Positions 22,770 to 38,584 of a DNA stretch of 64,000 nt are shown piece after piece. Below the pieces are notes generated by a model that worked only from the letters and a program-made list of their open reading frames with translations, had not been told where the DNA came from and ran no database searches. Made by a program: the position numbers and the translations under genes. How positions within the stretch are numbered: the first letter of the stretch is position 1; each line of letters opens with the position of its first letter. The stretch comes from the human T2T-CHM13v2.0 reference genome, Homo sapiens: assembly GCF_009914755.1 (NCBI RefSeq), contig NC_060936.1, one strand, 5' to 3'.

Positions 22770-23200
22770 GAAGGTGAATTAGAAAGGATGACAGCAAAAC
22801 TGCTATAACACAAAGGCCCCAAAACACAGTAGCATATAGAAAACAGAAGTTTATTTCTCACTTAGTCTGGGAGGAAGCGGTTCCAGACAGCAGGCAGCTC
22901 TGTTCCTCCTAGTCAGTCAGGGACGTGTGTTCCTTTCATACCTTTGCTTTGTCTTCCCTTAGGGATGTCTTTTCAGTTGCCTGGTCAAACCTGTCTCAGG
23001 CACATCTGCCCAGCTCATGAAAGAGAGAACACAAAGGAGAATTTACCCAATGTCATCAGGCTTTGAGGACATGCTTGCCTCACATTCCCCTGTGTCTACA
23101 CCTGGCAACAAGAGCAGCTGGGAAATGGAGTGTCCAGCTGGGTGTCTCTCTACCCTCGTGCAGCAAGGAAAGAAGAGATTTTAGTGGACAACGGGCAGTC
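22770..23200. mobile_element. MaLR LTR (MLT1-like) fossil
   Basis: 'ccccaaaacacagtagc...acagaagtttatttctcac' is typical of MLT1 LTRs. Confidence 0.5.
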
Positions 23201-24629
23201 TTAATCCAGGGCTCAAACCCACACCCGAGCTGTCCTCTTCCTCTTCTCTTCCCAAAGGAAGGGAAATAAAGTCTACAGCCCAGAAAACAATGTGACCACC
23301 CATCCCCTACCCCAATCAGGTCCCTGCCATTCATCCCAAGATCAGCAGTCTTGGGAAAGTGGCTTGGAAGCCTCCCTCCAGAAAGACCACCCTTTTGTCC
23401 ATCTTCTTCACATGGGTGGATGTGAGAAAAGTTTCTCTCCCCACTGCCTGCCTGCCACTCCCTGTCTCAGTTTCAGCTCACGCTCTAGCCCTTTGTTCCC
23501 AGTCACCAAGAGTGACTACAAATGCGGGGGAACAGGAGGACCTGAAACTTCATGGAAATTGAGACTGGGACACAGAAGCCATGCTCAGAGGCAGCCTAGG
23601 TGAGGGTTCTGATGCCAGGAAATCCAGCTACTACTGTGTAGCCTAAAGCGGGGATTAAGCTCTCAGAACTTCAATGAACTCTTTTGGAAATAGGGGTAAG
23701 AAGCCCACTTGTCAGGGCTGTTGTGAACATCAAATGTGATCATGTATGTACCTAGTACATAGTATGCCTTCAATAAATGGTAAGGCAAACCCAAGGCAAA
23801 TCGAATTCATGTCCATTACTCTGACCCAGCCTTTGCATAAATTCTTTTTTCTTCTCCTTCCTTGTCAATGCATGGCTCCCTCCCTCTTCTTTACTTCCTA
23901 TCCTCATTCCCCTACCATCTGAACCCTGATGTGGAATCTCTTTTCTCATGAAATCTTCCATGATTGAAAAATTCCTGCTTGGCCACTTCCCACTCCAATA
24001 CTCTATCTTCGCCCATCTTCCATCTACCCCATGGTCCTGGCCCAAGTTCACATGTGTCCCATCCCTCCCTTCAAAAAGCATGCAGCAATGGAAGGGCTTT
24101 AAGTTTGTCATCAAGCAGATCAGAGTTCAGATGCCAACTCTGCCAAGTTCTAGCTTTAGAACTTTGTCAGATCACTTCCTCTCCTTGAATCTCTGTCTTC
24201 CCAACCCTCTGGTGAGGTCAAGTGTGTGTGGGCTGGTACATAAAGGATATTTAATCTCCTCTGCTCTACTCAACCTCCCCCAACTCACACTCCCAGGACT
24301 AACTCTCTACCAAAGGGAGTTATTAGACCAAGAAAGTAATTCTCCCATTACCAGCCCCACCCCAACCCTGCCCAGAGAAAAAGAAGTGACTTCGAGTCTA
24401 TGGGTCTTGGAGGGACCACCAACCCAAGAGCTAGAGCAGAAGAAGGACTTGGATATCCTAGCTTCCAGGGTTATAGGATCTCTCCCCAAGCCCTCATATG
24501 GAGCCCCAGTTGCAGGACTAGCTTCAGGGATAGGAGTGAAAGAGTTGATCTGATTCCAATCTTAGCCTGTAAGTAGTAGCTCACCTGTGCCTCTATTTTC
24601 AGCCTTCCTAGATCAGAAGAGCAACAATA

Positions 24630-25110
24630 TCAATGACAACTAATGCTTACATAGTGTTTCCTATGGGATGGGCATTGTTCCAGGCTCTTCGTACATATAA
24701 CTCATTTAATCCTGACAGCAACCTTTGAGCTAGGTACTATTAACCCCATTTTACAGACAAGGAAACTAAAGCACAAGGGGTTAAGTAACTTGCCTAGGTC
24801 ATACAACTCACATAAGGCATGACTGAGATTCAAAACCAGGCCGTCTAGCTCCAGAATCCATCCTGTTAACCACTCTGCCATAAAAAGAGCTAACATTTAC
24901 TGGCAGTTTCTATGTGCCAAACACTGTGGAAAACACATGGCATGTATTTCTTCTAATTCCAAATAACCCCCTGAGATAAGTTCTATTATTAGTATCCCTG
25001 TTTTACAGGTCAAGAAACTAAGGCAGAGAGAAAAGTTAAGCAACTTGCCCTGAGTCACACAGCTAGATATTAATAGTTTCAGAACCCCTAGCTGTTTTGC
25101 CTCAAATCCC
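24630..25110 (-). mobile_element. Two tandem MIR SINEs
   Basis: 'ccccattttacagacaaggaaactaaagcac...aagtaacttgcctaggtca' and a second copy at about 24990-25070. Confidence 0.85.
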
Positions 25111-27479
25111 ACCTCCCCACCCCTGCTCGAAGCCCCTCCTCTTCTAGGTGGGTTGTTTAGTTCCTATCACCAGTTCTTCACAAATCTGCTTTACCCCCGA
25201 CAGCCTACAACCCTTGTTCTCCAAAACTCCTGTTGACCTCCGTCCCTTTCCCTTCCCACTTTCTCCCTAGTCCCTCCGCTCCCCACAAAGTCCCCCAAAC
25301 CATTCTGTCCCTCTCCCTCTGCTCCCCACCCACCCTCCCCCACAACTCCTGCTGAAACAGATGAATTTCACCAAAAAAGACCATCAGACTTTCCCCAAGC
25401 AGGCCCCCACTGTGCCTGATCGCACACCCCCAGGGGAGGCACCACAGTGGCTAAGCTGGAGACCCAGAAATAAAATCCTCATTCTACTTCCCTGCCCCCT
25501 CTTCCCATCACTCATCTGGGAATCCAGGGCGAAGAAGGGAGCTAAAGTGCAGAGCATTCATTTAATATTAACAAATCGAAATGAATTCTTTTAATGCCAA
25601 TTAACTTCGAGCGGCCCCTTATTAATAGTAATTTAGATTCATACTTGGGAGAAACAGGGACGGGGGCTGGGCCAAATGTGCCCAGAATGTCAATGTGACT
25701 GGGGAACTGAAAGGGGAGGGGGGCAGTTTTACTTCTGCCCAGTTGGGTTCCGTTTCCCTGAGAGAAATGGATAGTCACTGGAGGCGGACCTTTGGGAAAC
25801 ACGAATTACTCTTGTAATTTTATTTTTGTTACTTCAAGGAATCTGAATAGTTTGAAGCCATGTCACACCATTTTAATAGTTTATTTTCACAGTAATGCTA
25901 AAAAGAAGAATTTCCTCAGAGCTGGGATTTACTTCAAACTCTCTCCTAAGCCAAACCTTACTGACAAAAGGGACAAGTCCCCAGGCCAGCTCTCTACCCT
26001 TCTTTGTTCAGAGCTAGAGCCAGAGATCAATATGGGCTTCCCCAATCCCTGCCCCTTCTACCTTAACCAAAACTAAAAGGAAGAATCAACACTGTGTGTC
26101 TCTCTGAGAAGTCTCCCCCAGGAGGTAAAAGACCCAAGGGGCTGACCCCTAAGCTGTTCAGCTTACATTTAAGGAAGAAAAACAATCTGCCTGCACTTTT
26201 CTTAGAATTTAGGGAAAAAATGAGAATTTAAAATTCAATTTCATGTATCAGAGTTCTCCAGAATACAGCCAAGTGTAAAGAACTTAGTCCCAAATGAAAA
26301 AGTTGAACAGAAATTCTGCTCTCACTCGTTTTGCCGGCTTGGAGGTCAGACTGGAGGTGTCCTGAACTAGAACCAGAGCATAGGTTCTGACCCAAGAAGG
26401 ACACTGTCTACTTCCCAGGCATCCCTCCTTGGCTGGGAGGAGAGGGGAGGATGAGTCCGTTGGAAGCTGAGAATTGTGGAAGCTGGAGATGGGAGTTCTG
26501 AGATGGAGGAGGCAGGCGCGTGAAGGAGGTCAGGGAAAGGCAAGTAAATCTACTAACCATTGAAGTTTATAAAATAAAAACCTTAAAAATGGTTTAACAT
26601 GCAAAAGGTTAAATTTTAAAAAGAGGCCAGGTTTTAAAGAAGGTAAAATACCTCAAATTTAAACAAATAAAAACGAGGAAAATACACAAAACATTTCAAG
26701 CAAATTGTTCTTCAGAAGAGGAGAGGTTGGAATTAATCAAAAGACCTTTTTTACACACACACACCCCCCAAGAGTTTCCCAAACAATAAATTCATTTACA
26801 AAACAAAAAGAGGAATCAACGCAAAACCTCATCCACACACAGAGGAAAATAAATTGTGGTGATTCTGTAACAGCTGAAAAACTAGTGAGGGAGGAGAAAA
26901 ATGAATAAACTCTAAATCTATTAGGTGATATTTATAAATAGCAAAATTGGAGGATGGAATGGAGAAAGGAGTTGAACTTATCATTAAAGAAGTAACACAT
27001 GTGAAAACATAAGGTGTAACTCATCCCCAAAGAAAAGTAAACTCTCCATAAAGTAGCAAGTATACAAATTTATTGAAAAGGAAGAAAGTACCACTCACCC
27101 CCCCCAATATAAGTGTATTAATTTGAATTAAAATTTTCTCCAAATCCAAGATAGGTTACACAAAAGAATACAAACATATTTTTTTTCTTTCAACTAAGAG
27201 GAAAAACAAAATCCGATTTAAATTCACGAATGGGACAGGAAGGGAGGCTGTGGTTTGCAGGTGCTAGTAAACGGGGTGAGGGTTGTGAAGAGTTTGAGGG
27301 GTAGAGGACCAGCTTACCTCGCTTTGGAGCCGCGGCGGCCAACAGGAGTGGGCCAAGGACCCTGCCAGTGCCTGAGTGATAGGGGAAATAAGGAATAGGG
27401 GATTCGGGTGCCCCTAGACGAATGAGGAGGATGGAAAGACTGGGGGTGCCCATCTCCCCTCCTCTGCCCGCCTCCCTCC

Positions 27480-27620
27480 CTCCGGTACCCAGGCCTAGAG
27501 AGCTACTGAAAGTTACAAATTGCTTCCATTATTAGCTCATCCCGGGCGGCCTGGTCATTGGCCAGCCCCTGGCCACGTGGTCCCTCGTACCAATCGATCG
27601 AATTCTAGTCGCAATTCTCT
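27480..27620. promoter_or_regulatory. CpG-island promoter, probably bidirectional: inverted CCAAT (27557), E-box CACGTG (27574), CCAAT (27590)
   Basis: Motifs read directly; flanked by divergent consensus splice donors (- strand 27317/27318, + strand 28170/28171). Confidence 0.7.
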
Positions 27621-27725
27621 GTCTGTCCCTCGGCTCTGGGGAGAAAGGGGGGGCTGTGGCGTGGGGGCTGAGGAGGGGCTAAGGCGGGAGGGGCGCCTCA
27701 TCCCTTCACCCTCCCTTTTCGCCAT

Positions 27726-28170
27726 GTGGGGGCCCTGAGCGCCGCCCCAGAAGAGGTCGAGGGAATGTTGTGGGCTGGGGCACACCAGCACGGCAGAAAC
27801 TGGAGAAAGCGAGAGACGTCGCCAGGGACCCAGGGACCTCTCCCTCCAGTTCCCCGGGCCCGCCCGGCCCTGATGGCCACTCACGCTATAGCGCCCACTC
27901 TGTCCTGGGCCATCCCGCGCCAGCAGTGTAGCCCCCAGCCCGGGCGCCTGAATGCTCTCCCTCCGGATCGCTGCTCGGGTCCCCACTTTGGCGACCGTGC
28001 CCCCGAGTCCTGCTTCCCCGGGGCCTGCTCTGTATCAGGCGCCTGCGCCTTCAAGGGTACCCGGCCCGCCTGCCCTCCCCAAGAGCCGAGTTTGCGCTCC
28101 TCCCGGAATCGTTTGAGAGAAGGACAAACTTTTGGCAGGATGGAAATCTAGATGAGCCTGTCCGGAGCAG
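27726..28170 (+). pseudogene. Exon 1 relic of a paralog-group-1 Hox gene (putative HOXC1), hexapeptide region
   Basis: CAA ACT TTT GGC AGG ATG GAA ATC TAG ATG AGC CTG TCC GGA GCA G|gt = QTFGRMEI*MSLSGA-G versus Hox1 QTFDWMKVKRNPPKT-G, same spacing and phase-1 intron; 5' boundary uncertain. Confidence 0.8.
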
Positions 28171-30333
28171 GTAAGCTGGGCCCGGGACGGGTGCGATTCA
28201 GCCCGAGAACAATCTGTCTCTCCCCGTCCCGGTCTCTCCCTCCCCTTACCCCTGTTTCCCCTGCAGGCTGACATATTAATCTGCCTTCCCCCGGGAGAAA
28301 TTTGGGCTGGGGTTGGGCTTCTGTCAGATGCATGGGGTCAGAGCAGCTTTCCTCCCCGAGTTTAGGGACTAAGGTGGTAGCTGGCAGGGGAGGGGGAGGG
28401 TTGCTTCCGAAACTGAGGATTGAGGGGAGGGTTAGGGGCCGAGAAACCCAGAGTCTGAGGGAGACGACTTCTTTCCTCAAACGCAACTTGGGGGAACTTC
28501 GGAAAAGTTTTTTGAGGGGAGATGGAGAAGGGAGCGGAGTTGGGGTTTCGAGGGCTAAAGTGGGAGAGAGGGTGCTCCGCTTCCCGTACTGAAGGAAGGA
28601 TGTGTGTGCTTATTCCCCAGTCGGGACCGATTACCAGCCTAGAAAAACCCAGCCGCGTCCCAAACCCGCTCACCCCAGCAGGCCCTTAGAGACGCTTGGA
28701 GATCCCCAGACACGCCCCGCGGAAAGGGAAGGAAATGCCAGCCCGAGTTGCCGACTCTGCCGGGACGGGGCGGGGGATCCGCCCAGAGCGGTCCCCTGCT
28801 GTCCTGGGCCCTTACGTTGATTCTAAGTTAGGAGTGATCTGAGAGAGGGAATAACTCCCAAAAATCTTTTTTTTTTTTTTTCTGAATCCAATTTGAGTCA
28901 GAGACCCATTTCCTTGAGATGGAGCCAAGCGAGTGCCCCCTCCCGCCTCCAGCACAATCTCCCGCTCTTCTCCAGTTCCCAAAGGAGGGCAAGGAAAAGG
29001 CCCCTACTCTCCTCCCAGGGCTGAGATTTCCTCCCCCACCCAAGAGATGCCCCAGGAGGAAGGAATGGAGAGGTTCTTCAAAGGGCAGTCAAGAGCAGAG
29101 GGTGGGTTCAGAGGTCACAGCTGAACTTGGGGCCCAGGACAAGGGGGAAGGGCGGGCCCAGGCCGGTGTAGAAGCTGCGGGGTGGCCTGGGGAAGTGGAC
29201 AAGGGCAGAGGCCGCTGCAGGTGTTGGGGGGTACCCTGGAGCCCGGGGTGTTCCTGGGCGGGGAGGTCCAGCCAAGCGGCAAGGGTCTGCGCTGTGCCTT
29301 TAGTTTTTAGGTTGGGCCCCTCCTGGGGAGCACCCAGCTGGAGGAGCCAGGCAAGTGGCAGAGGACACCTTCCGACTCCTTGGAAAGGGCCAGGAAGCGA
29401 TCTGGATCCTAGGAGAGAAAATTCCTACGTGGAACATGTGGTGTTCTGGCCCTTCCTGGGTAGACACCTGCAGAGGCCACTTGGCCCTGCCGGGTCAGAA
29501 GCCACAAATCTGCCCAGGCCTTTGTTTTCACTATTCCTGAAGTTTTTCTGCTGTGGCCCAGCACCTGCCCTGGCACCTGCTCGGCATCTGCTCATTGGCA
29601 AGCCCCGGACGGAGTTGGACTGGCCTAGCTGAGAGGTTTAGGAGGGCTTCCGCTGGCACTGCCAACAGGGAGTTTGGCTTGGTCCCCCAAAAAAAGGGCC
29701 TTTGAGAAGGACATGTCCAGGGGCAGACACGAAATCCACTGATACGCAAAACGAATGTAAACCCTTTTCTTTCCTCACATCTTGTGGCCCTTCACACCTC
29801 TGCAGTTCAGAGGATTTGGAATGGAAGGCCTCATCCATCCCCAGTCCCAAAGCAAACGTGGGAGCCAGCTTGGGCGTCTTCTTGCAGGCTGCTGGGGCTT
29901 TGTGTGCTCTGAGAGAAGATGTCTGGTCCTCTGCCTACCCCACTCCCCCTTTGATGAATGTGGTCCTTTTTGCTCCTGCCTCTCCAATACTACCCCTCGC
30001 CCCACCCCCCCACCCCCAACCCAGTCCCACAGATCTATGGGACTATCTCTCTTTTTCTCTTTCCTTGCTCCTCTTCCCCTTTCTTCTTAGGATTGATGGA
30101 CTGACAGCAGTTTGGCAAGGCTTCCCTAAGCCTGTAATAGGGAGCTGTGGACCCAGCCCTGACTTCTCAAGTAGGGGGAAACAGCTCTATTCCCGGGCCC
30201 TTGAGATTGAGTCTCAAGTTGACAGGAGTTGAGAAAGAAATGCATGAAGGATGGCTGGGCTTACGCAGGACAAAAACCTCTACTGGGGAGGGGCCAGTTT
30301 TGTGCCTTGTGCCTACTGCTGAGAGGGAATTTA

Positions 30334-30960
30334 GAAACAAAGGAAGATAAGAAGAAGGCCTAGGGAAACAGCATAAAGGACTGGAAAAATTCAGAACAGC
30401 AAAGAGAAAAAACTGGGAGAGAGGAAAAGATGTGAAAAGGCCCTAATGCTGGAGACAGAAAGGTATTCTGGAAGGGTGGCTGGGATAGAGATAACATGAA
30501 AGGAATATTGATAAAGAGCAGAAGGAAGAAGCAGGACTAGGTTTGTTTGGGTTTTTAAGATTAGAGATAGTCTGGGGCCTGTTAAAATAGAAAATAGAAG
30601 AAAAAAGATTAGAGATAAAGACAGAAAGGAAAAGAAAAGAAAAATAGGGAGAGAAACAGAAAGCAAATGAAAGGAGAGAGCTAGAGAGTAAAAGAAAAAG
30701 GAAGGGAAAGAAAGGGAGGTAAAAGTGAGAAAAAATAAATGGAAGGGAGACAGAAAGATAGGTAGAAAAGGAGGAAAGACAGGGACAAGGGAAAGAAGCA
30801 AGGACAGGGGAAGGAATGGAAGAAAAAGAGAAAGTGAAGGTAGGGCAGAAATGAAGCAAAAGAAGGAAGGAAAAATGAGAAATGAAGATACAGTGAGATA
30901 AAGAAGGAATAAGGGGAGTGAGGGGAAGGCGGGTAGAGAGAGAGAGAAAGAGAAACACGA
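30334..30960. repeat. GA-rich low-complexity polypurine tract
   Basis: About 0.6 kb of mostly A/G on the + strand (core about 30586-30958). Confidence 0.9.
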
Positions 30961-31121
30961 ACTCAACTAAGGTTAACGGTTAACAGAAAGGGGATCCCGG
31001 TTCCTGAGGAGCACAGGGAGGAAAGAGGAGATGGAGGGTGAGCAGAAAGGCCAGTTGGGGCCCCTCCCCGCCTCACCTTGGGCTGCGGAGGCCCTGACCG
31101 CCACCACTCCGCCGTCTCTAG

Positions 31122-31510
31122 GGCCCAGACCTGGGTGATGGCTGCCTGTGAACCGTGGGAGGTAGAGGCAGGGGCTGGCTGCCTGCATACGGGCTTCTCT
31201 TCTCGAAGCAGCTGAGCGAGCTGGAGTTCTTCCTGCAGCCCTACCTGCCCCCGACACAGCACGCCAAGCTGGACACATGGCGTTGAGGCTGTATGACATG
31301 CAGGTCCAGATCTGGTTCCAAAAGGCGTGCATGAAGTACAAGAGGCCAGTGAGGCAGGAATTGTTTGTGGATTCCCACCCTGGCGGCCCCTCTCCCGGGC
31401 TCAATCCTCTCACCCGCAGCCCCAAGTGCCTCCATTCCCACCCTACTGGCAGAGGCTGTCTGAAGACTGGGCAGCTTTGTTCCGGGCTCGGGGGTGCTCT
31501 GGTTCTGTGA
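31122..31510 (+). pseudogene. Exon 2 relic: frameshifted homeobox of a paralog-group-1 Hox gene (putative HOXC1)
   Basis: Branch-like CTGAC 31094 and acceptor AG 31120-31121; frames LHTGFS (31183-31200), SKQLSELEFFLQPYLPPTQHAKLD (31203-31274), [23 protein letters not shown] (31277-31345) align to [55 protein letters not shown]. Confidence 0.88.
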
Positions 31511-31529
31511 GCTTGGGCCTGTTTGATCA

Positions 31530-31872
<343 letters not shown>

Positions 31873-32887
31873 TGATCATTTGTTAAATGAGCCCTTTGCA
31901 CTGGAGGGTTTTTCTGTAGTTTTGGTTAGCCTGCCTGAGTATGTGCAAATGAGACAGGGATGAAGATAAGACCTAGTCCACTTTGCAAGGGTGGGAGGGG
32001 AGTGTGAGGGTGTAGGGGTTGGGAGGATGGGAGGCTGGGAGTGAGATCTTCATTTTCTTCCATTGGTGAGAAGAAAAATCTTCCTCCTTTGCTATCCTTA
32101 TCTCCAACCCTGCCCCAGAAAACCACCTTTCAGGTCAAGGAGTTTCTCCATGCCAGGAGGGGTTGGATTCATCTGCAAAGAGCTTGGGAGGAGGTTTGCA
32201 AATCCTGGAAAAGCCAGAGAAAGGATCTCATACATGAAAGGGAAGGAAGACATTCCCTACCCGGGCAAGTGGACCTTAGGTCTGCAGTAGAGTTCACTGA
32301 ATTCACACACACAAAGAGATTAATTGGTAAGGTGACTTTAGATTTAGCTATAGAGAGGATCAACTTGAGGTTGCTAGGTATCTTTAGCCTGTTGGGCCTG
32401 CACTCCCCATGCCCTGCTCATGTGCTCTGGTTGATTCACAAGGTTTCTTAGAGCCAATTCCTTTGTCTCCCAAAAGTGGGATGGGGCAGGTCACTGAGGT
32501 CAGCCAGTTCCTCCAAGGGCAGTGTATGCCTTGAGGATGGGCTGGGGCACCCCCAAACCACTGGCTAGAAAGGCATGTTCACAGTAAACCTTGCAGTGCT
32601 GTCTCAGGGAGGCCTCTGACCAGCACTGCCTAGCATTGCTCTTTAAGCTTTTCCTCCCCTCTTTTCTCTAGCTTCTCCCTTCCTTTATTTCTCTTTCTCT
32701 CTCTCTTCCTTCCAACCTTTCTGATTTCTCTGTCTCCCTTTTCATCCAGTCCAAGTTGGGGATCTTGTACTATCTTTGTACTCCAGATGGCTCTGCTCTG
32801 AGCCCTTTAGGCTGGTTAACATGTACCCTGCCCTCAAGAGTTCACTATTTGGATGCAAATAGCAGGATTAGAAGATGGGGAGGGAGC

Positions 32888-33250
<363 letters not shown>

Positions 33251-34378
33251 TTAATCATGATTATGACCTTCACATCCCCTTGGCTCACCCCTAGACAATT
33301 CTTCCCCACTCCCAGCCATCTGCAAACCACAGTCAGCCTGTCCCTGCTCCCAAAAATGGAATTGCTGATGCCCTCAAGGCTGTTACTCTCCCAGGGTGAG
33401 TGAGAGTGAGGTCAATGGCGCCAGGTCGGAGCCTCAAACTCTTAAATAAACAAAGCATATTTCCCTATTCCTGATGCAGTTGGGGGTCATCTATCCCTTG
33501 GAATGGAGAGGCTGGCAATTCTGGCTCTTGGCTATCTTTCCACAGAACACCCCTGATTAGCCAGGCCCACCGCCATCCACATCTGCTCGGCAAAGAAGGA
33601 AGGCAGCTTGTTCCAGACCTTGGTGAGCAGCTGCAGACTGCCTGCCTAGAACAGCCTCCTTACTCCAGCCTGGCAGGGAAGGAAGGAACCTGACTTGCTT
33701 CGCAGGATCTGGAAGCTCAGCCGGCAGAGCTGAGAGCCGCAGTTGCATCCTGGAGCCTGATGCTAGAAGCAGCTTCCGTCTTTGGGTTCTTGCTGCCTCG
33801 GCCTCTGCTCTGTTCAGTTTGCTGTTGTGTTTTTCTCCCCCATGTTGGGGTGGTGGGGTACAGGGAAATAAAATGCTTTCTCCCAGGCCCCTAATCCTTC
33901 CCCATGCCTCCATCAGCCTCAAAGCTGCTGACAGTCATGAACTGCACCTTCCAGCCCTGCCCATAAGCTACTCAAAGCAAATTCAAATTCTCTTCTGGCC
34001 AGGAGGAAGGGCAGATGCTCCCTCCTTCCTCAAGCCTCCCTGGCTCATTGATCCATTTTGAGGGCATTTGGGGGTCAAAGTTGAGACCAGATTGCTTCAG
34101 TTTGTATAAAATTAGCATTTCTTATCACACCAAGGCCACACCTGTTCTCTGGCCTCACAAACCAGTGAGGATGTAAAGGTTTGTTGAGGTGGAGGAACAG
34201 AAGTGAAATGAGCAATCTGCTCCATTTAGAAGTCAGTCGCTTCGGCTGTTCATTCCACTAATATTTATCTAGTACCTATTCTGTGCCAAGCATTGTCTCT
34301 ACCTCAGTTTGCCACAAATATGAAAAAAAAAAAATTCTTGGAACTGTGAGGCTTCAATGTGTTGTGGACCAATATACA

Positions 34379-34384
34379 AATAAA
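34379..34384 (+). terminator. Polyadenylation signal AATAAA of the lncRNA terminal exon (alternative AATAAA at 33867)
   Basis: AATAAA followed about 16 nt later by GT-rich sequence. Confidence 0.6.
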
Positions 34385-37300
34385 CCAATGGAAAAGAAAG
34401 TGTGGTTCGGAGTCAGCTGATTTTCATTGCAGCTTTCCATGTGCTGGGTCTAAGAGCCCCTGACTTCCGAGCTCCAGCTACCCAGCCCCAGCTGGTTGAC
34501 AAGCAGGACTTCCCTGGGGCCCATTTGTTTTTCCCACTGGAAAAATGTTAGAATGGGAGCAAGAAGCCTGTGCTGGGATCAACCGCCATGAAAGTCCCAA
34601 AACAAAGGGTTTGGGATGGGCGGCGGTGGGGCCCTCCCAAACATTGCTCCGTCAGAGGTGAGGGAGGGTAGGGGTGATGTGATACGTTTCTCCAGGTTGC
34701 AGAGCAGGTCTGTGAGTTTGCCTTGGTGTAATCACGTGCCTGAAGGTGATAACAAGGGTGTGCATGTGTGAGTGAGCTGAAGGGGGGCAGAGAAGTGTGC
34801 CTGTGCCAGGCTTGTGTACACCGGGCCCAGATGCCTGCACAGGTGCCAGTGTGTGTGTGTGGAGGGGGATAGAGGTGCCTGCAAATCTGAACATGTCTCT
34901 CCATATGTGACCCTCAGTGTATGTGAGAGTGTGTGTACCCGCTGAATTATGATAAAATTACACCGACCCTTACAGAAAATCCATAACAGCCTCGGCCTTT
35001 CTCCCCCGACCTCTCGACCTCTGGGGTGCCTGAGGAAAGGGTTGACCTGGTCACTGCCTCCTCCTAGTCAATGAGTCCCCCTCCATTAGCATAAAACATG
35101 AATCTGCTGGCAGCTTGACAAATTATAACTAGCAGCCAGAGTTTTGCCAACTGGCTGGCTTGGGTGCTGTCTATTTATCATTGAAAATGGTAAATCATAA
35201 GAATCCAGATGACTTAATTATTCAAATCCACCCAGGACCCAGAGAAGCTGCAGGCCCGTCAATCTCAGCCCTGGGCTCACAGAGAAGAGTGGGGGAAATG
35301 CTGTGAGCTTGTGAGCTGGAAGAAGCAGGTTCCATTGCCGCCTCTCCCCTACCCAGAGAGCAGGATTTTTCTCTGCAGCCCCTTCCCCTCCCTGCCGTTC
35401 TGCCCACCTTTCCAGCCAGAAGCCCGGCCAATTGTTTTGGTTGCTGGCCTCCCAAGGCTCTCCCTCGCACGCCTCCCGCTGCCCACCACCCGCTCCTCAA
35501 GCTCAGCCAGTGTTTCCCGGCCTCTCTTTGTGTGGATGTTAGCTCTTTCTCTCTGTTTCAGTGCCCTCATTTTTATTTCTTCTCTTTCTCCTATTCCTTT
35601 CACCATTTCTCTTCGTCTCTCCTCTGCCCACAGATAGACACTGAGCCCCGCACAGGGCCTCTCTGGTGGAGTTTTGCCTGCTCTCCTGGCCCCTTTGTCC
35701 TCACTGTCCCAGAGGTGCCAGCTCAGGATCCCCACGCATACGCACCCCAACCTTAACCCAGCGCTCCGAGTGCTAGAAGGCCTGAATTCGCGTCTCTCTG
35801 CTGTGGGGCCATATGGAAACACACATGTCAGTGGATAATACTGGGCCTGCCCCCACACCCCATACACACAACCTTTCTGTCCCTTTCTTCCGTGGATTTC
35901 TAACTACCATTATGCACAACTTGGGAGGTAGTGGCCAGGCTGTCAGAGATGTGCCCGGACCACTGAGGCAGGGCTTCGTCTCAAGAAGGCCCATCCCTCA
36001 CTCCCAGCATGGAACTACCTCAAGCCCCAGCAGAGGGATTGCTCAACATGAGCTTTCCCAGAAGGAGAAGAAACCCTGTTTACAGAACAAGTCCTAGATC
36101 CAGAGGTCTGCACACTGAGCTTCTGGGGGGCCCTTTGATGTTTGGGTCCTTTTATCTTTGTGTCCCTCACAGTCCAATATAAATATGTCCTACTTTTTCT
36201 TGCAGTCCTGGACCCCGTGAGAAATTTATGCCCTTCTAGACCCACAATGGCAGGTGGGAGGCACATATTCACCAATGCTGATATTGCTTTGACCCCAGAG
36301 GGGAATGTGAGGAGCAAGGAGGTTGCCAGAGCCCCTCTGCTTGAATGGCATCCCGGTCTATTCTTTTGGAGGGCTTGCTTTACCTGTAAGGGCCCTGGAG
36401 GCTCCTCAGAGCCACTTCTGTGTCTGCAGATGCTTGTCAACTTGGTTCTGGGATTCAGTTTGGCTTTGTCGGGGTGTGTGTGTGAGCACGTGCACACCTT
36501 TCGTGGATAACCTGGAGTCTTGACATACTGATGGGTCGTGCCTGGTGGCGTGCATGCCTGCACAAGTGCGCCAGTGCCCCTGATGTGTATGTGGGTGAGT
36601 GTGTATGTGTGCATGAACACACACTTCCAGAAAGAGCCCTTGTGCTGAAACAACGAGTGACAATGTCCCCACCAACAGGACACCTGAGGAAACAGCCCTC
36701 TCCATTCCATTTTAAGGCCTCTGAGCAATGTTGTTGTCAGTGAAATATTGGACTTGGCATATCATAAAACCTTAAAGAAGGAGCTACCTGTTTCTGCTAC
36801 TGAAAGTAAGTTCTTCCTAGAGTCTAGCCTTCTCTTCTTCTTTCAGGGCGGAATATGAGCATAGTCAGAAATCTCGAGAGGGGGCTCCCTACTCCTCCAA
36901 GAGAACATACGTGACATATAGGGAGCCCTTCCACAGCCAGGCTCATCCCCACAGCTTAAACACTTCATCCCCTCACTCTTCCCTTCTTCTCCACCTTTCC
37001 AAGCCAGGGTGATATTTGACAAGGGCAGTGGCGAGGGGTGAAACTTGGGGCGGGTGGCTGGGGGAAGGATAAAGATTCAAAAGCAGGCCAAGCTGCTGGA
37101 AGGCAGGAGATCAATAAGGGGAGACAGATTGGAGACAGGTTTCTCTCACTACTTCCCCACCCCTCGCTGGCTCAGCACCCCCGCCCCAGCTCCTGAAAGC
37201 AGGTGGAGGACAGAGCCAAGCACTGGCCTCTCCCTGCCCTTCTAACTCAAACAGGTTCCTAATCCCTGGGTAGAGGGTAAACAGCCTCTAAGCACGGCCA

Positions 37301-38584
37301 GGATTAACCACAGAAATGCCGCTAATGTATTTCGGGGCACTGCTCCCTGCCCCTACCCCCACCCTGTGTTACTAATTAGCCCAGCAGCAGGGAGAAGCTT
37401 GGGAGGAGCAGCTCAGAATGCCTTTGTGCAGGCTCTGAAAGCACAGGTCTGGGCTCTGGACAGTGTCTCTGGTGCTAGACAAGCTGGGGTGGCAGAGGAT
37501 TCCCGCCCCCTCCCCGCCACTCCTAAATCAGCTCAAAGGCAGACAGGTTTTTCTCTGTGCCCTTCCTGAATCCCCATCTCTCCTTTCCTGTTCACAGCTG
37601 GGAGGCAGGTGGGGGACAAGAGGGAGAGTGGAACCGGCTCTGGAAATCAAACGATGCAATAAAAAATTAATTGTCTAATTAAAACCATGAGGAAGCCCCT
37701 TGCCAGAGTTTGGCTCTGAGTCGTCAGGGCTATAAAGGGTGGGAAAATGAGTCTCAGCTCCTAATAAATTCCTGATTTGCAGCTTGGTCTATCAGCAAAG
37801 GAGCACTGAGCGTTCCACTGGCTAGGCCTCCTGGAGGTCATTCCACCCTCTCTCTGCCCCAACCCAGCCATCACACCCAAAATCCTACACAAGCCCACAG
37901 TCAGGGTTTCCCCAAAAGGAGAGAAAGCGGGGACCCTCAGTCTCCCTGATCTGATGCTTACCCATTTCTTCCTGGTCTTTCCTCGGGAAAGGAAAGTTCT
38001 GGAAACTTCCTCAACCAAAGAGTTCTTCATTTAGGTTAACTAATAACTGTATGAACAAGTTTGCTATGTAGGTTCATTTTGACCTCACCTCTTCCACTTT
38101 TGTGAAAAGTATAATTTATGAACTGATTTATGATTCCCTCTCTTAGATCTTAGTGCTGATTTTTGCAGGTGAATGACAGAGAACCAAGCTAAGAAATTAA
38201 TCTCCCCTCTAAAAGAGGGCTGTGCACCCTGCCCAGTTGACCAAATCCTCTGGAAGAATGAACACAGAGCTAGTCCAGAAAGGAGTGCAGAGTTAGGCAA
38301 CTCTCATGGGCAGATGGATGCCCAAACCTTCTCCCTGAATCACTGAACCATTTCTTCACTTGGGTCTGCCTGTGTAGACACAGGCTCCATGCCTCTATTC
38401 CCTCCCTTTCTTGGCAAAAACAAATGCATTATACATCATCAGAGGTATTAATTCATAATAACAGCGGGAGGAGGTAGTTAGCATACTGCCTTCAACATCA
38501 TATTACATTATTTTATTATACAGAATGCAATATGAACTCTATATCTGTGATTGGCTTCTTTAAACAAACATGGCAGAACAAACA

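What the first reader, a model, noticed from the sequence alone, without database searches (positions are those of the whole stretch)
28125..28176. Decayed Hox1 hexapeptide (TFDWMKVKRNPP) at the end of the lncRNA first exon
Seen: CAA ACT TTT GGC AGG ATG GAA ATC TAG ATG AGC CTG TCC GGA GCA G|GTAAGC. Q, T, F and M are identical to Hox1. Nine further residues are each one nucleotide from a Hox1 codon: D GAC>GGC, W TGG>AGG, K AAA>GAA, V GTC>ATC, K AAG>TAG, R AGG>ATG, N AAC>AGC, P CCG>CTG, P CCC>TCC. There is no indel, and the intron falls at the same codon and phase as in HOXA1 (..PPKT-G). Established: FDWMKVKRN is diagnostic of labial/PG1, versus YPWM or FPWM in other groups, and the Trp is needed for PBX binding. 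This assigns the paralog group independently of the homeobox.
Basis: partly seen in the sequence, partly recalled or inferred. Interest (0 to 1): 0.85.

Follow-up and report, generated by a model that had tools for sequence, protein, structure and literature searches.

The report
Fossil HOXC1 hexapeptide inside LINC02381
The last 46 bases of the first exon of the human non-coding RNA gene LINC02381 are the decayed remnant of the PBX-binding motif and splice site of HOXC1, a Hox gene that mammals lost, so this RNA gene appears to have grown out of a dead Hox gene.

Summary

- **Match to HOXA1.** It aligns without gaps to the exon-1 ends of human HOXA1, HOXB1 and HOXD1 fetched from the same genome: 32, 27 and 24 of 48 bases. 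The G|GT donor sits at the identical position and phase.
- **Not chance.** The HOXA1 match is the single best of 127,906 sites in the window. None of 300 simulated windows reached it. The "all 13 codons within one base" property is also unique in the window, with 0.017 expected.
- **Paralog group.** Of 22 human HOX hexapeptide blocks, the three group-1 genes rank first. Group 3 scores 16-21 of 48.
- **Second relic.** A frameshifted homeobox lies 3 kb downstream on the same strand, at 31184-31351. By itself it cannot separate group 1 from group 3, so the hexapeptide carries the assignment.

Best reading: an in-place HOXC1 pseudogene whose exon-1 end and donor now serve LINC02381.

Not done: the cross-species alignment, and comparison with a named HoxC1, because no such data were reachable. 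No report of this relic turned up in the searchable literature.

The parts
28125..28170 (+). Decayed hexapeptide and linker codons of HOXC1 exon 1 (reads QTFGRMEI*MSLSGA plus G). It carries Trp>Arg, an in-frame TAG and seven other one-base residue changes.
28171..28176 (+). 5' splice site GTAAGC at the ancestral group-1 position and phase (phase 1). It is the donor of LINC02381 exon 1.
   Evidence: Aligned with the G|GT of HOXA1, HOXB1 and HOXD1. The exon end at 28170 comes from the hub's RefSeq table.
27629..28170 (+). LINC02381 exon 1 (RefSeq NR_026656.1). It overlaps most of what would have been HOXC1 coding exon 1. The relic's reading frame is open for 159 codons (27672-28148).
   Evidence: Hub's table; (233 of 20,000 local-composition simulations stayed open that long)
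31184..31351 (+). Decayed homeobox relic with indels, a frameshift and stops. It lies in LINC02381 intron 1, 3.0 kb downstream of the donor. The best-kept part is helix 3 (31280-31366).
27200..29000 (.). CpG-rich island (GC 0.56-0.68, CpG obs/exp 0.45-0.71, against 0.22 for the whole window). It covers the relic exon and the head-to-head starts of LINC02381 and FAM242C.
   Evidence: hub's table

Best explanation
The block is a molecular fossil. It is the 3' end of coding exon 1 of HOXC1, the paralog-group-1 gene at the 3' end of the HOXC cluster, which mammals lost. It still lies in place, 74.6 kb downstream of the HOXC4 homeobox and on the same strand as the HOXC genes.

The gene is dead. The PBX-contact Trp codon is now AGG, a Lys codon is TAG, and the homeobox 3 kb downstream is frameshifted. 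No Hox protein or hexapeptide can be made.

What survives as a working part is the original phase-1 5' splice site. It now ends the first exon of the lncRNA LINC02381 (also called HMS). That transcript starts inside the former exon 1 within a CpG island, skips the dead homeobox, and splices to a new exon at 33546.

**Shown:** the sequence match and its statistics, the donor position, the homeobox relic, and the placement in the cluster.

**Inferred:** descent from HOXC1 rather than from another lost HOXC gene; that the lncRNA inherited the donor and perhaps the promoter; and that the decay is roughly neutral and old. Base retention is 62-63% at sites invariant in HOXA1, HOXB1 and HOXD1, a Jukes-Cantor distance of about 0.5. 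By mammalian rates that I recall, this fits a loss between the amniote and therian ancestors.
For: 1. **Ungapped match to HOXA1.** 32/48 bases including the GT, unique in the window, reached by 0 of 300 simulations.
2. **Codon test.** All 13 codons lie within one base of the Hox1 residue's codon. This is unique in the window, with 0.017 expected. For 13 of 34 distinct real Hox1 15-residue motifs, no site in the window scores better than 28125.
3. **Paralog group.** The three group-1 genes are the top three of 22 human HOX hexapeptide blocks.
4. **Donor position.** It sits at the same base and phase as in HOXA1, HOXB1 and HOXD1. Their junction is confirmed by exon-2 reading and by spliced representative proteins such as ..PPKTGKAGEY.
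5. **Homeobox relic on the same strand.**
   - It is the best tblastn hit of the whole window (E 1.4e-4 with HOXD1 exon 2).
   - It is the top blastn hit for all three homeoboxes (E 4.5e-6, 4.5e-6 and 0.001).
   - 46 of 46 Hox1 representative proteins hit it.
   - Aligned identity is 52-58%, against 74-82% between the live paralogs.
6. **Equal decay in both relics.** 18 of 29 invariant sites are retained in the hexapeptide block and 73 of 115 in the homeobox. This is what one gene that died once would show.
7. **Single copy.** The genome holds the homeobox stretch once and the stretch from 27674 onward once.
8. **Literature.** HoxC1 is part of the ancestral tetrapod and amniote set. It is kept in caecilians, lobe-finned fishes and some lizards and is absent from mammals (passages read in PMC3038165, PMC4470032, PMC9498476 and preprint 10.1101/2024.09.03.611012). 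Lizard HoxC1 has a long intron of about 9 kb (PMC9498476), so a 3-kb intron here is unremarkable.
Against: - Only two short blocks are recognisable.
- No relic of the N-terminal motif was found.
- The 159-codon open frame shows no similarity to any of the 343 Hox proteins in hand; the best E is 1.7.
- Pfam finds no homeodomain in three frames of 26001-36000.
- The PDB search of the helix-3 translation gives only weak homeodomain hits (E 0.009-1). Its top hit is an unrelated designed repeat protein.
- The HOXD1 probe alone is at chance level.
- The homeobox relic does not discriminate the paralog group. HOXB3 is nominally as close as HOXB1, and the Tyr codon in ..MKYK.. is the group-3 state.
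- No protein named HoxC1 was recovered for comparison: none in the three lists of 120 hits each, about 340 distinct proteins in all.
- The cross-species test was not possible.
Confidence: 0.9

Rival explanations
1. Chance resemblance. A GC-rich lncRNA exon happens to end in codons near the Hox1 motif, and the reader found them because it was looking there.
For: - Only 4 residues are identical, and tblastn does not see the block.
- The HOXD1 probe is at chance level, with 41 sites at or above 24/48.
- A second motif-like site at 28681 (GP*RRLEIPRHAPRKGK) also appeared for one query at E 0.004. This shows how easily weak look-alikes arise.
- 6 of 300 simulated windows reach the codon-distance score somewhere.
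Against: - The site is the unique best of 127,906 for HOXA1, reached by 0 of 300 simulations.
- The best site also coincides, to the base and phase, with an annotated splice donor.
- It lies 3 kb upstream, on the same strand, of the window's best homeobox match, at the 3' end of a Hox cluster.
- The site at 28681 scores 14 over 15 codons, which is the usual chance best, and has no GT at the junction position.
Confidence: 0.03
2. The two relics belong to another lost HOXC gene (HOXC3, or HOXC2) rather than HOXC1.
For: - Mammals lost HoxC3 as well (PMC3038165 abstract and passages).
- At base level the homeobox relic is as close to HOXB3 (64 of 96 compared bases) as to HOXB1 (63).
- Group-3 queries hit helix 3 at E 5e-4, in the same range as HOXA1 (0.001) and HOXB1 (0.002) but above HOXD1 (7.7e-5).
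- The relic's ..MKYK.. matches group 3.
Against: - The hexapeptide block scores 32, 27 and 24 of 48 with group 1, against 21, 17 and 16 with group 3 and 16-17 with group 2.
- In HOXA3, HOXB3 and HOXD3 the reading frame runs on past the point where the relic and the group-1 genes have G|GT.
- The relic's KQLSELE stretch aligns only with group-1 queries (TKQLTELE), although weakly, at E 5-13.
- The post-homeodomain ..QELF resembles the group-1 ..REGLL.
Confidence: 0.04
3. A secondary copy of HOXA1, by duplication, gene conversion or retrocopying, rather than an in-place HOXC paralog. The block is closest to HOXA1.
For: - HOXA1 is clearly the nearest at base level (32, against 27 and 24).
- The sequence immediately upstream (22800-27673) belongs to a recent segmental duplication family, so the neighbourhood is duplication-prone.
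Against: - The intron is kept at the genomic position, so this is not a retrocopy.
- A 1.7-kb HOXA1 gene query matches the window only at the two coding blocks, at 65-67% identity, with nothing in intron or flanks. That is the pattern of ancient paralogy.
- The relic itself lies outside the duplicated segment and is single copy.
- The greater closeness to HOXA1 and HOXB1 is expected, because human HOXD1 carries a divergent motif (TFEWMKVKRNASKK).
Confidence: 0.02

Closest known systems
Human HOXA1, HOXB1 and HOXD1 (paralog group 1, labial class)
   Same: - The same motif type (TF[DE]WMKVKRN).
- The same phase-1 intron, 34 bases after the first base of the Trp codon.
- A homeobox downstream on the same strand.
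- A position at the 3' end of a Hox cluster.
   Different: - The relic has Trp>Arg, an in-frame TAG and 9 residue-changing substitutions in 13 codons.
- Its homeobox has 16 gap columns and a frameshift.
- Its identity to the live genes is 52-58%, where they share 74-82% with one another.
- No protein can be made.
Functional HoxC1 of lobe-finned fishes, caecilians and some lizards
   Same: It is the expected orthologue: the 3'-most gene of the HoxC cluster. Lizard HoxC1 has a long intron (passages in PMC3038165, PMC4470032, PMC9498476 and preprint 10.1101/2024.09.03.611012).
   Different: Those genes are intact and expressed. No sequence named HoxC1 could be obtained here, so orthology rests on position and paralog-group features only.
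lncRNAs that are fossils of lost protein-coding genes (Hezroni et al. 2017, PMC5577775; gene-loss relics, PMC10195156)
   Same: A lncRNA exon overlaps residual coding sequence of an ancestral gene at the syntenic place and reuses its splice site.
   Different: This locus is not named in either paper. [quoted passage not shown]
Remnant of HoxD12 in the caecilian Hox cluster (PMC4470032)
   Same: A dead Hox gene still detectable by alignment inside an otherwise intact cluster (passage read).
   Different: A different gene and lineage. That remnant is not described as part of a spliced lncRNA.

Membership tests
Hox paralog group 1 (labial class) gene or pseudogene | Hexapeptide of the TF[DE]WMKVKRN type, not the [YF]PWM type of groups 2-8 | tested here: met
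   It is met in decayed form: 4 residues are identical and 9 are one base away. The three group-1 genes are the top three of 22 human HOX blocks.
Hox paralog group 1 (labial class) gene or pseudogene | Phase-1 intron directly after ..K[TK]-G, 34 bases from the first base of the Trp codon | tested here: met
   G|GT lies at the same base in the relic and in HOXA1, HOXB1 and HOXD1. The hub's table shows that LINC02381 uses it as a donor.
Hox paralog group 1 (labial class) gene or pseudogene | Homeobox downstream on the same strand | tested here: met
   A relic lies at 31184-31351. It is the top tblastn and blastn hit of the window, and 46 of 46 Hox1 representatives hit it.
Hox paralog group 1 (labial class) gene or pseudogene | Group-1-specific homeodomain residues | tested here: inconclusive
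   Base identity and tblastn scores do not separate groups 1, 2, 3 and 8. KQLSELE favours group 1, while MKYK favours group 3.
Hox paralog group 1 (labial class) gene or pseudogene | Conserved N-terminal motif (M..[FY]L[ED]Y) | tested here: not met
   No site in 26801-27900 scores better than chance. This is expected for an old pseudogene and does not argue against descent.
HOXC cluster member (HOXC1) | Lies at the 3' end of the HOXC cluster, in the cluster's orientation | tested here: met
   The HOXC13-to-HOXC4 homeoboxes lie on chr12 + at 53.91-54.02 Mb. The relic lies at 54.092-54.095 Mb on +, before SMUG1 (hub's table).
HOXC cluster member (HOXC1) | Orthology to HoxC1 of species that keep it | not testable with these tools
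   No vertebrate genomes other than this one were reachable, and no protein named HoxC1 appeared in the hit lists.
Functional Hox gene | Intact reading frame encoding hexapeptide and homeodomain | tested here: not met
   There is a TAG at 28149 and a Trp>Arg change. The homeobox carries a frameshift and stops.
lncRNA fossil of a protein-coding gene | lncRNA exon overlapping residual coding similarity at the syntenic locus | tested here: met
   The relic occupies the last 46 bases of LINC02381 exon 1 (hub's table).
lncRNA fossil of a protein-coding gene | Conservation of the lncRNA or the relic in other mammals | not testable with these tools
   No other mammalian genome is held.

The most novel reading that the evidence does not exclude
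LINC02381 (HMS) is HOXC1 turned into an RNA gene. On this reading its CpG-island promoter, first exon and splice donor are the inherited HOXC1 promoter, coding exon 1 and donor. They would have been kept under selection since the protein died because the transcript, or the act of transcribing and splicing it, regulates the HOXC cluster. A published report has HMS stabilising HOXC10 mRNA (PMC8363838). The unusually long open ancestral frame would be a trace of that constraint or of residual translation: 159 codons, p about 0.012, ending at the TAG inside the dead hexapeptide.
Probability: 0.15. Interest if true: 0.75.

Novelty: new member of a known kind. Interest (0 to 1): 0.58.

Why it matters
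- **A physical trace of a lost Hox gene.** Mammals are described as having 39 Hox genes, with HoxC1 simply "lost". A recognisable HOXC1 carcass in the human genome gives that loss a physical trace. The TAG, the Trp>Arg change and the homeobox frameshifts can be scored across monotremes, marsupials and placentals. That would date the loss and show whether it happened once.
- **An origin for a studied lncRNA.** LINC02381 (HMS) is much studied in cancer. This would add a Hox-cluster example to the known class of lncRNAs that arose from dead coding genes.
- **A point of method.** A 46-base block with only four surviving residues can still assign a paralog group when the homeobox cannot.

Tried and rejected
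- **Pfam.** A scan of 26001-36000 in three frames, with stops read as X, found 0 families.
- **N-terminal Hox1 motif.** 45-base probes and 18 motif variants found nothing above chance.
- **Upstream open frame.** The 159-codon frame against 343 Hox proteins gave a best E of 1.7.
- **Second motif-like site at 28681.** It is at chance level and has no donor.
- **Homeobox-like 23-mer on the minus strand at 38345-38367.** The flanks show nothing homeobox-like, so I treat it as chance.
- **Other homeobox relics, such as a HOXC3 remnant, in the window.** Group-1 and group-3 protein queries hit only 31280-31411.
- **Retinoic-acid response elements.** DR5 and DR2 patterns gave 0 matches, with 0.30 and 0.36 expected.
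- **Finding a named HoxC1 protein.** Three word-index searches and one exhaustive search were run.
  - The two candidate clades turned out to be HoxD1 of lungfish and basal fishes, and HoxD1 of ray-finned fishes.
  - An unnamed representative, P0215, is nominally closest to the relic in both blocks, but only by 2 units of 31-33. That is not enough to claim anything.
  - The Atlas look-up did not identify it.
- **Feiner & Wood 2019.** Two of the papers I read cite a 2019 paper for HoxC1 in lizards; the authors, year and DOI are my recollection. The DOI I recalled for it is not held, so whether that paper mentions a mammalian remnant is unknown.
Full report
**1. The observation**

Window 28125-28176 reads CAA ACT TTT GGC AGG ATG GAA ATC TAG ATG AGC CTG TCC GGA GCA G|GTAAGC. 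It translates to QTFGRMEI*MSLSGAG. The hub's table places the end of LINC02381 exon 1 at 28170, which is exactly before the GT.

**2. Real group-1 sequences for comparison**

The window's own genome can be searched. A back-translation of the motif quoted in the finding matched three places and none in the reversed control. They lie on chr7, chr17 and chr2.

Their translations identify them as HOXA1, HOXB1 and HOXD1. The N-termini read MDNARMNSFLEY.., MDYNRMNSFLEY.. and MSSYLEY.., each with a homeodomain in the second exon. Their exon-1 ends read:

| Gene | Exon-1 end |
|---|---|
| HOXA1 | QTFDWMKVKRNPPKT-G\|GT |
| HOXB1 | RTFDWMKVKRNPPKT-G\|GT |
| HOXD1 | STFEWMKVKRNASKK-G\|GT |

**3. Is the match more than chance?**

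- **Ungapped base match.** The relic matches the 48 bases of HOXA1 (46 coding plus GT) at 32 positions, HOXB1 at 27 and HOXD1 at 24. MAFFT aligns all four without a gap from the codon before Thr through GGTAAG.
- **Scan of the window.** Sliding the HOXA1 probe over both strands gives 127,906 sites. 28125 is the only site at or above 32, and the next best scores 27. The Poisson-binomial expectation is 1.8e-4. None of 300 order-1 Markov windows reached 32; the simulated maxima averaged 27.0 and peaked at 31.
- **Other probes.** The HOXB1 probe ties with two other sites. The HOXD1 probe is at chance level, with 41 sites at or above 24.
All 13 codons of QTFDWMKVKRNPP lie within one base of the residue's codon, with 9 changes in total. 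This holds at one site only in the window, with 0.017 expected. A total distance of 9 or less appeared somewhere in 6 of 300 simulated windows.
- **Real Hox1 motifs.** I took 34 distinct 15-residue motifs from 46 Hox1 representative proteins. For 13 of them, no site in the window beats 28125.

In addition, the best site coincides to the base with an annotated splice donor in the right phase.

**4. Which paralog group?**

I fetched 30 human homeobox loci and named the HOX genes by cluster order and translation. Hexapeptide blocks were found for 20 of 23 HOX loci examined; HOXA3, HOXD3 and HOXB7 were not within reach. HOXA3 and HOXD3 were added by a pattern search.

Matches to the relic, out of 48:

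| Gene or group | Matches |
|---|---|
| HOXA1 | 32 |
| HOXB1 | 27 |
| HOXD1 | 24 |
| HOXB3 | 21 |
| HOXD3 | 17 |
| HOXA3 | 16 |
| Groups 2 and 4-8 | 13-19 |

- Only group 1 has D or E before the Trp and KVKRN after WM.
- Only in group 1 does the block end in G|GT at that offset.
- In the three group-3 genes the frame runs on past that point.

**5. The homeobox relic**

Three kilobases downstream on the same strand lies a decayed homeobox.

- **Reading.** One frame reads ..GLLFSKQLSELEFFLQPYLPPTQHAKLD.. and, after a shift, another reads ..[30 protein letters not shown]...
- **Search hits.**
  - It is the best tblastn hit of the whole window for the human group-1 exons: E 1.4e-4, 0.007 and 0.013.
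  - It is the best blastn hit for all three homeoboxes: E 4.5e-6, 4.5e-6 and 0.001.
  - All 46 Hox1 representatives hit it, as do all 30 human homeodomains.
- **Alignment.** MAFFT aligns it over the full homeobox (31184-31351) with 16 gap columns. Identity is 52-58%, where HOXA1, HOXB1 and HOXD1 share 74-82% with one another.
- **Failures to detect it.**
  - Pfam does not detect it.
  - A PDB search gives only weak homeodomain hits, including HOXB1 chain 1b72_A at E 0.085. The top hit is an unrelated designed repeat protein.
- **No group assignment.** The relic does not tell the paralog group.
  - At base level, HOXB3 scores 64 of 96 compared bases, HOXB1 63 and HOXA3 62. HOXD1 and HOXA1 score 61, within a cluster of seven loci at 61-62 that also includes HOXB2 and two non-HOX homeobox loci on chr13.
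  - tblastn scores for groups 1, 3 and 8 overlap.

**6. One gene, one death**

At sites invariant in the three live paralogs, the relic keeps 18 of 29 bases in the hexapeptide block and 73 of 115 in the homeobox. That is 62% and 63%, or Jukes-Cantor distances of 0.53 and 0.50. Equal decay in both blocks fits a single gene inactivated once.

By mammalian neutral rates that I recall rather than computed, a distance of about 0.5 points to a loss somewhere between the amniote and therian ancestors. This is an upper estimate. The ancestral HoxC1 need not have shared every base that is invariant in the other three.

**7. Context**

- **Position.** The HOXC13-to-HOXC4 homeoboxes lie on chr12 + at 53.91-54.02 Mb. 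The relic's homeobox is 74.6 kb beyond HOXC4 on the same strand, before SMUG1 (hub's table). That is where a HoxC1 should be.
- **CpG island.** The relic exon sits in a CpG-rich island at 27200-29000. This island also holds the head-to-head starts of LINC02381 and FAM242C.
- **Splicing.** LINC02381 splices from the ancestral donor to 33546, bypassing the dead homeobox. At the position aligned with the HOXA1 acceptor AG the window has GG, but that alignment is weak.

**8. Literature**

*Passages read*
- HoxC1 is present in lobe-finned fishes and caecilians and absent in mammals (PMC3038165, PMC4470032).
- HoxC1 is kept in some lizards and so was present in the amniote ancestor (PMC9498476 and preprint 10.1101/2024.09.03.611012).

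*Papers with no mention*
- Two catalogues of human homeobox genes do not contain the word HOXC1 (PMC2211742, PMC4584094).
- Papers on LINC02381/HMS do not mention a Hox origin. I checked passages of PMC8363838, PMC9373536 and PMC11020647.
- Two systematic studies of lncRNAs derived from lost genes do not list this locus, in their main text or in the supplements held as text.

*Searches that found no report of a mammalian HOXC1 remnant*

| Search terms |
|---|
| HoxC1 + pseudogene |
| HoxC1 + mammals + remnant |
| HoxC1 + amniotes |
| HoxC1 + remnants |
| HoxC1 + lncRNA |
| LINC02381 + Hox |

The lizard paper that two of these papers cite (by my recollection Feiner & Wood 2019) is not held under the DOI I recalled and might bear on novelty.

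**9. What stays open**

- No N-terminal relic was found.
- No similarity was found between the open frame and any Hox protein.
- No named HoxC1 sequence was compared.
- No cross-species alignment was made.
- The relic's frame is open for 159 codons upstream of the TAG. Only 233 of 20,000 local-composition simulations stayed open that long. I cannot say whether this is chance, residual structure or constraint.

**10. Verdict**

It is a new member of a known kind, a lncRNA built on the carcass of a lost coding gene, in a famous gene cluster. It is of moderate to good interest, mainly for dating the mammalian loss of HoxC1 and for the origin of LINC02381.

Noticed in passing
window 22800-27673: The sequence directly upstream of the relic belongs to a recent segmental duplication. 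Six other copies at 95-98% identity lie on chr9 (4) and chr20 (2). The duplication ends at about 27673, which is 44 bases inside LINC02381 exon 1 and about 450 bases before the hexapeptide relic. This probably explains the FAM242 family name. The relic itself is single copy.
   Followed up: partly
window 27672-28148 (+); ATG-initiated ORF 27765-28151: The ancestral reading frame of the relic is open for 159 codons and ends at the TAG inside the dead hexapeptide. Only 233 of 20,000 local-composition simulations stayed open that long. It holds the longest ORF of NR_026656.1 (128 codons). Its translation resembles no Hox protein in hand. A published 'LINC02381-aa' micropeptide is a software prediction only (PMC9373536, passages read).
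   Followed up: partly
window 38345-38367 (-): A 23-base stretch is 91% identical to the helix-3 part of the HOXA1 homeobox (it reads ..QTQVKKWF..). Nothing homeobox-like lies around it, so it is probably chance.
   Followed up: yes
window 28648-28782 (+): A second weak look-alike of a HoxD1-type hexapeptide region (..GP*RRLEIPRHAPRKGK..) appeared for one representative query at E 0.004. It is at chance level by codon distance and has no GT at the junction position.
   Followed up: yes
protein P0215 (unnamed representative): This Hox1-family protein sits in a clade apart from the HOXA1, HOXB1 and HOXD1 clades. Its motif RTFDWMKVKRNPSRT and its ..IATALQL.. are nominally the closest to the relic in both blocks. 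It could be a HoxC1, but it carries no name and the margin is small.
   Followed up: partly
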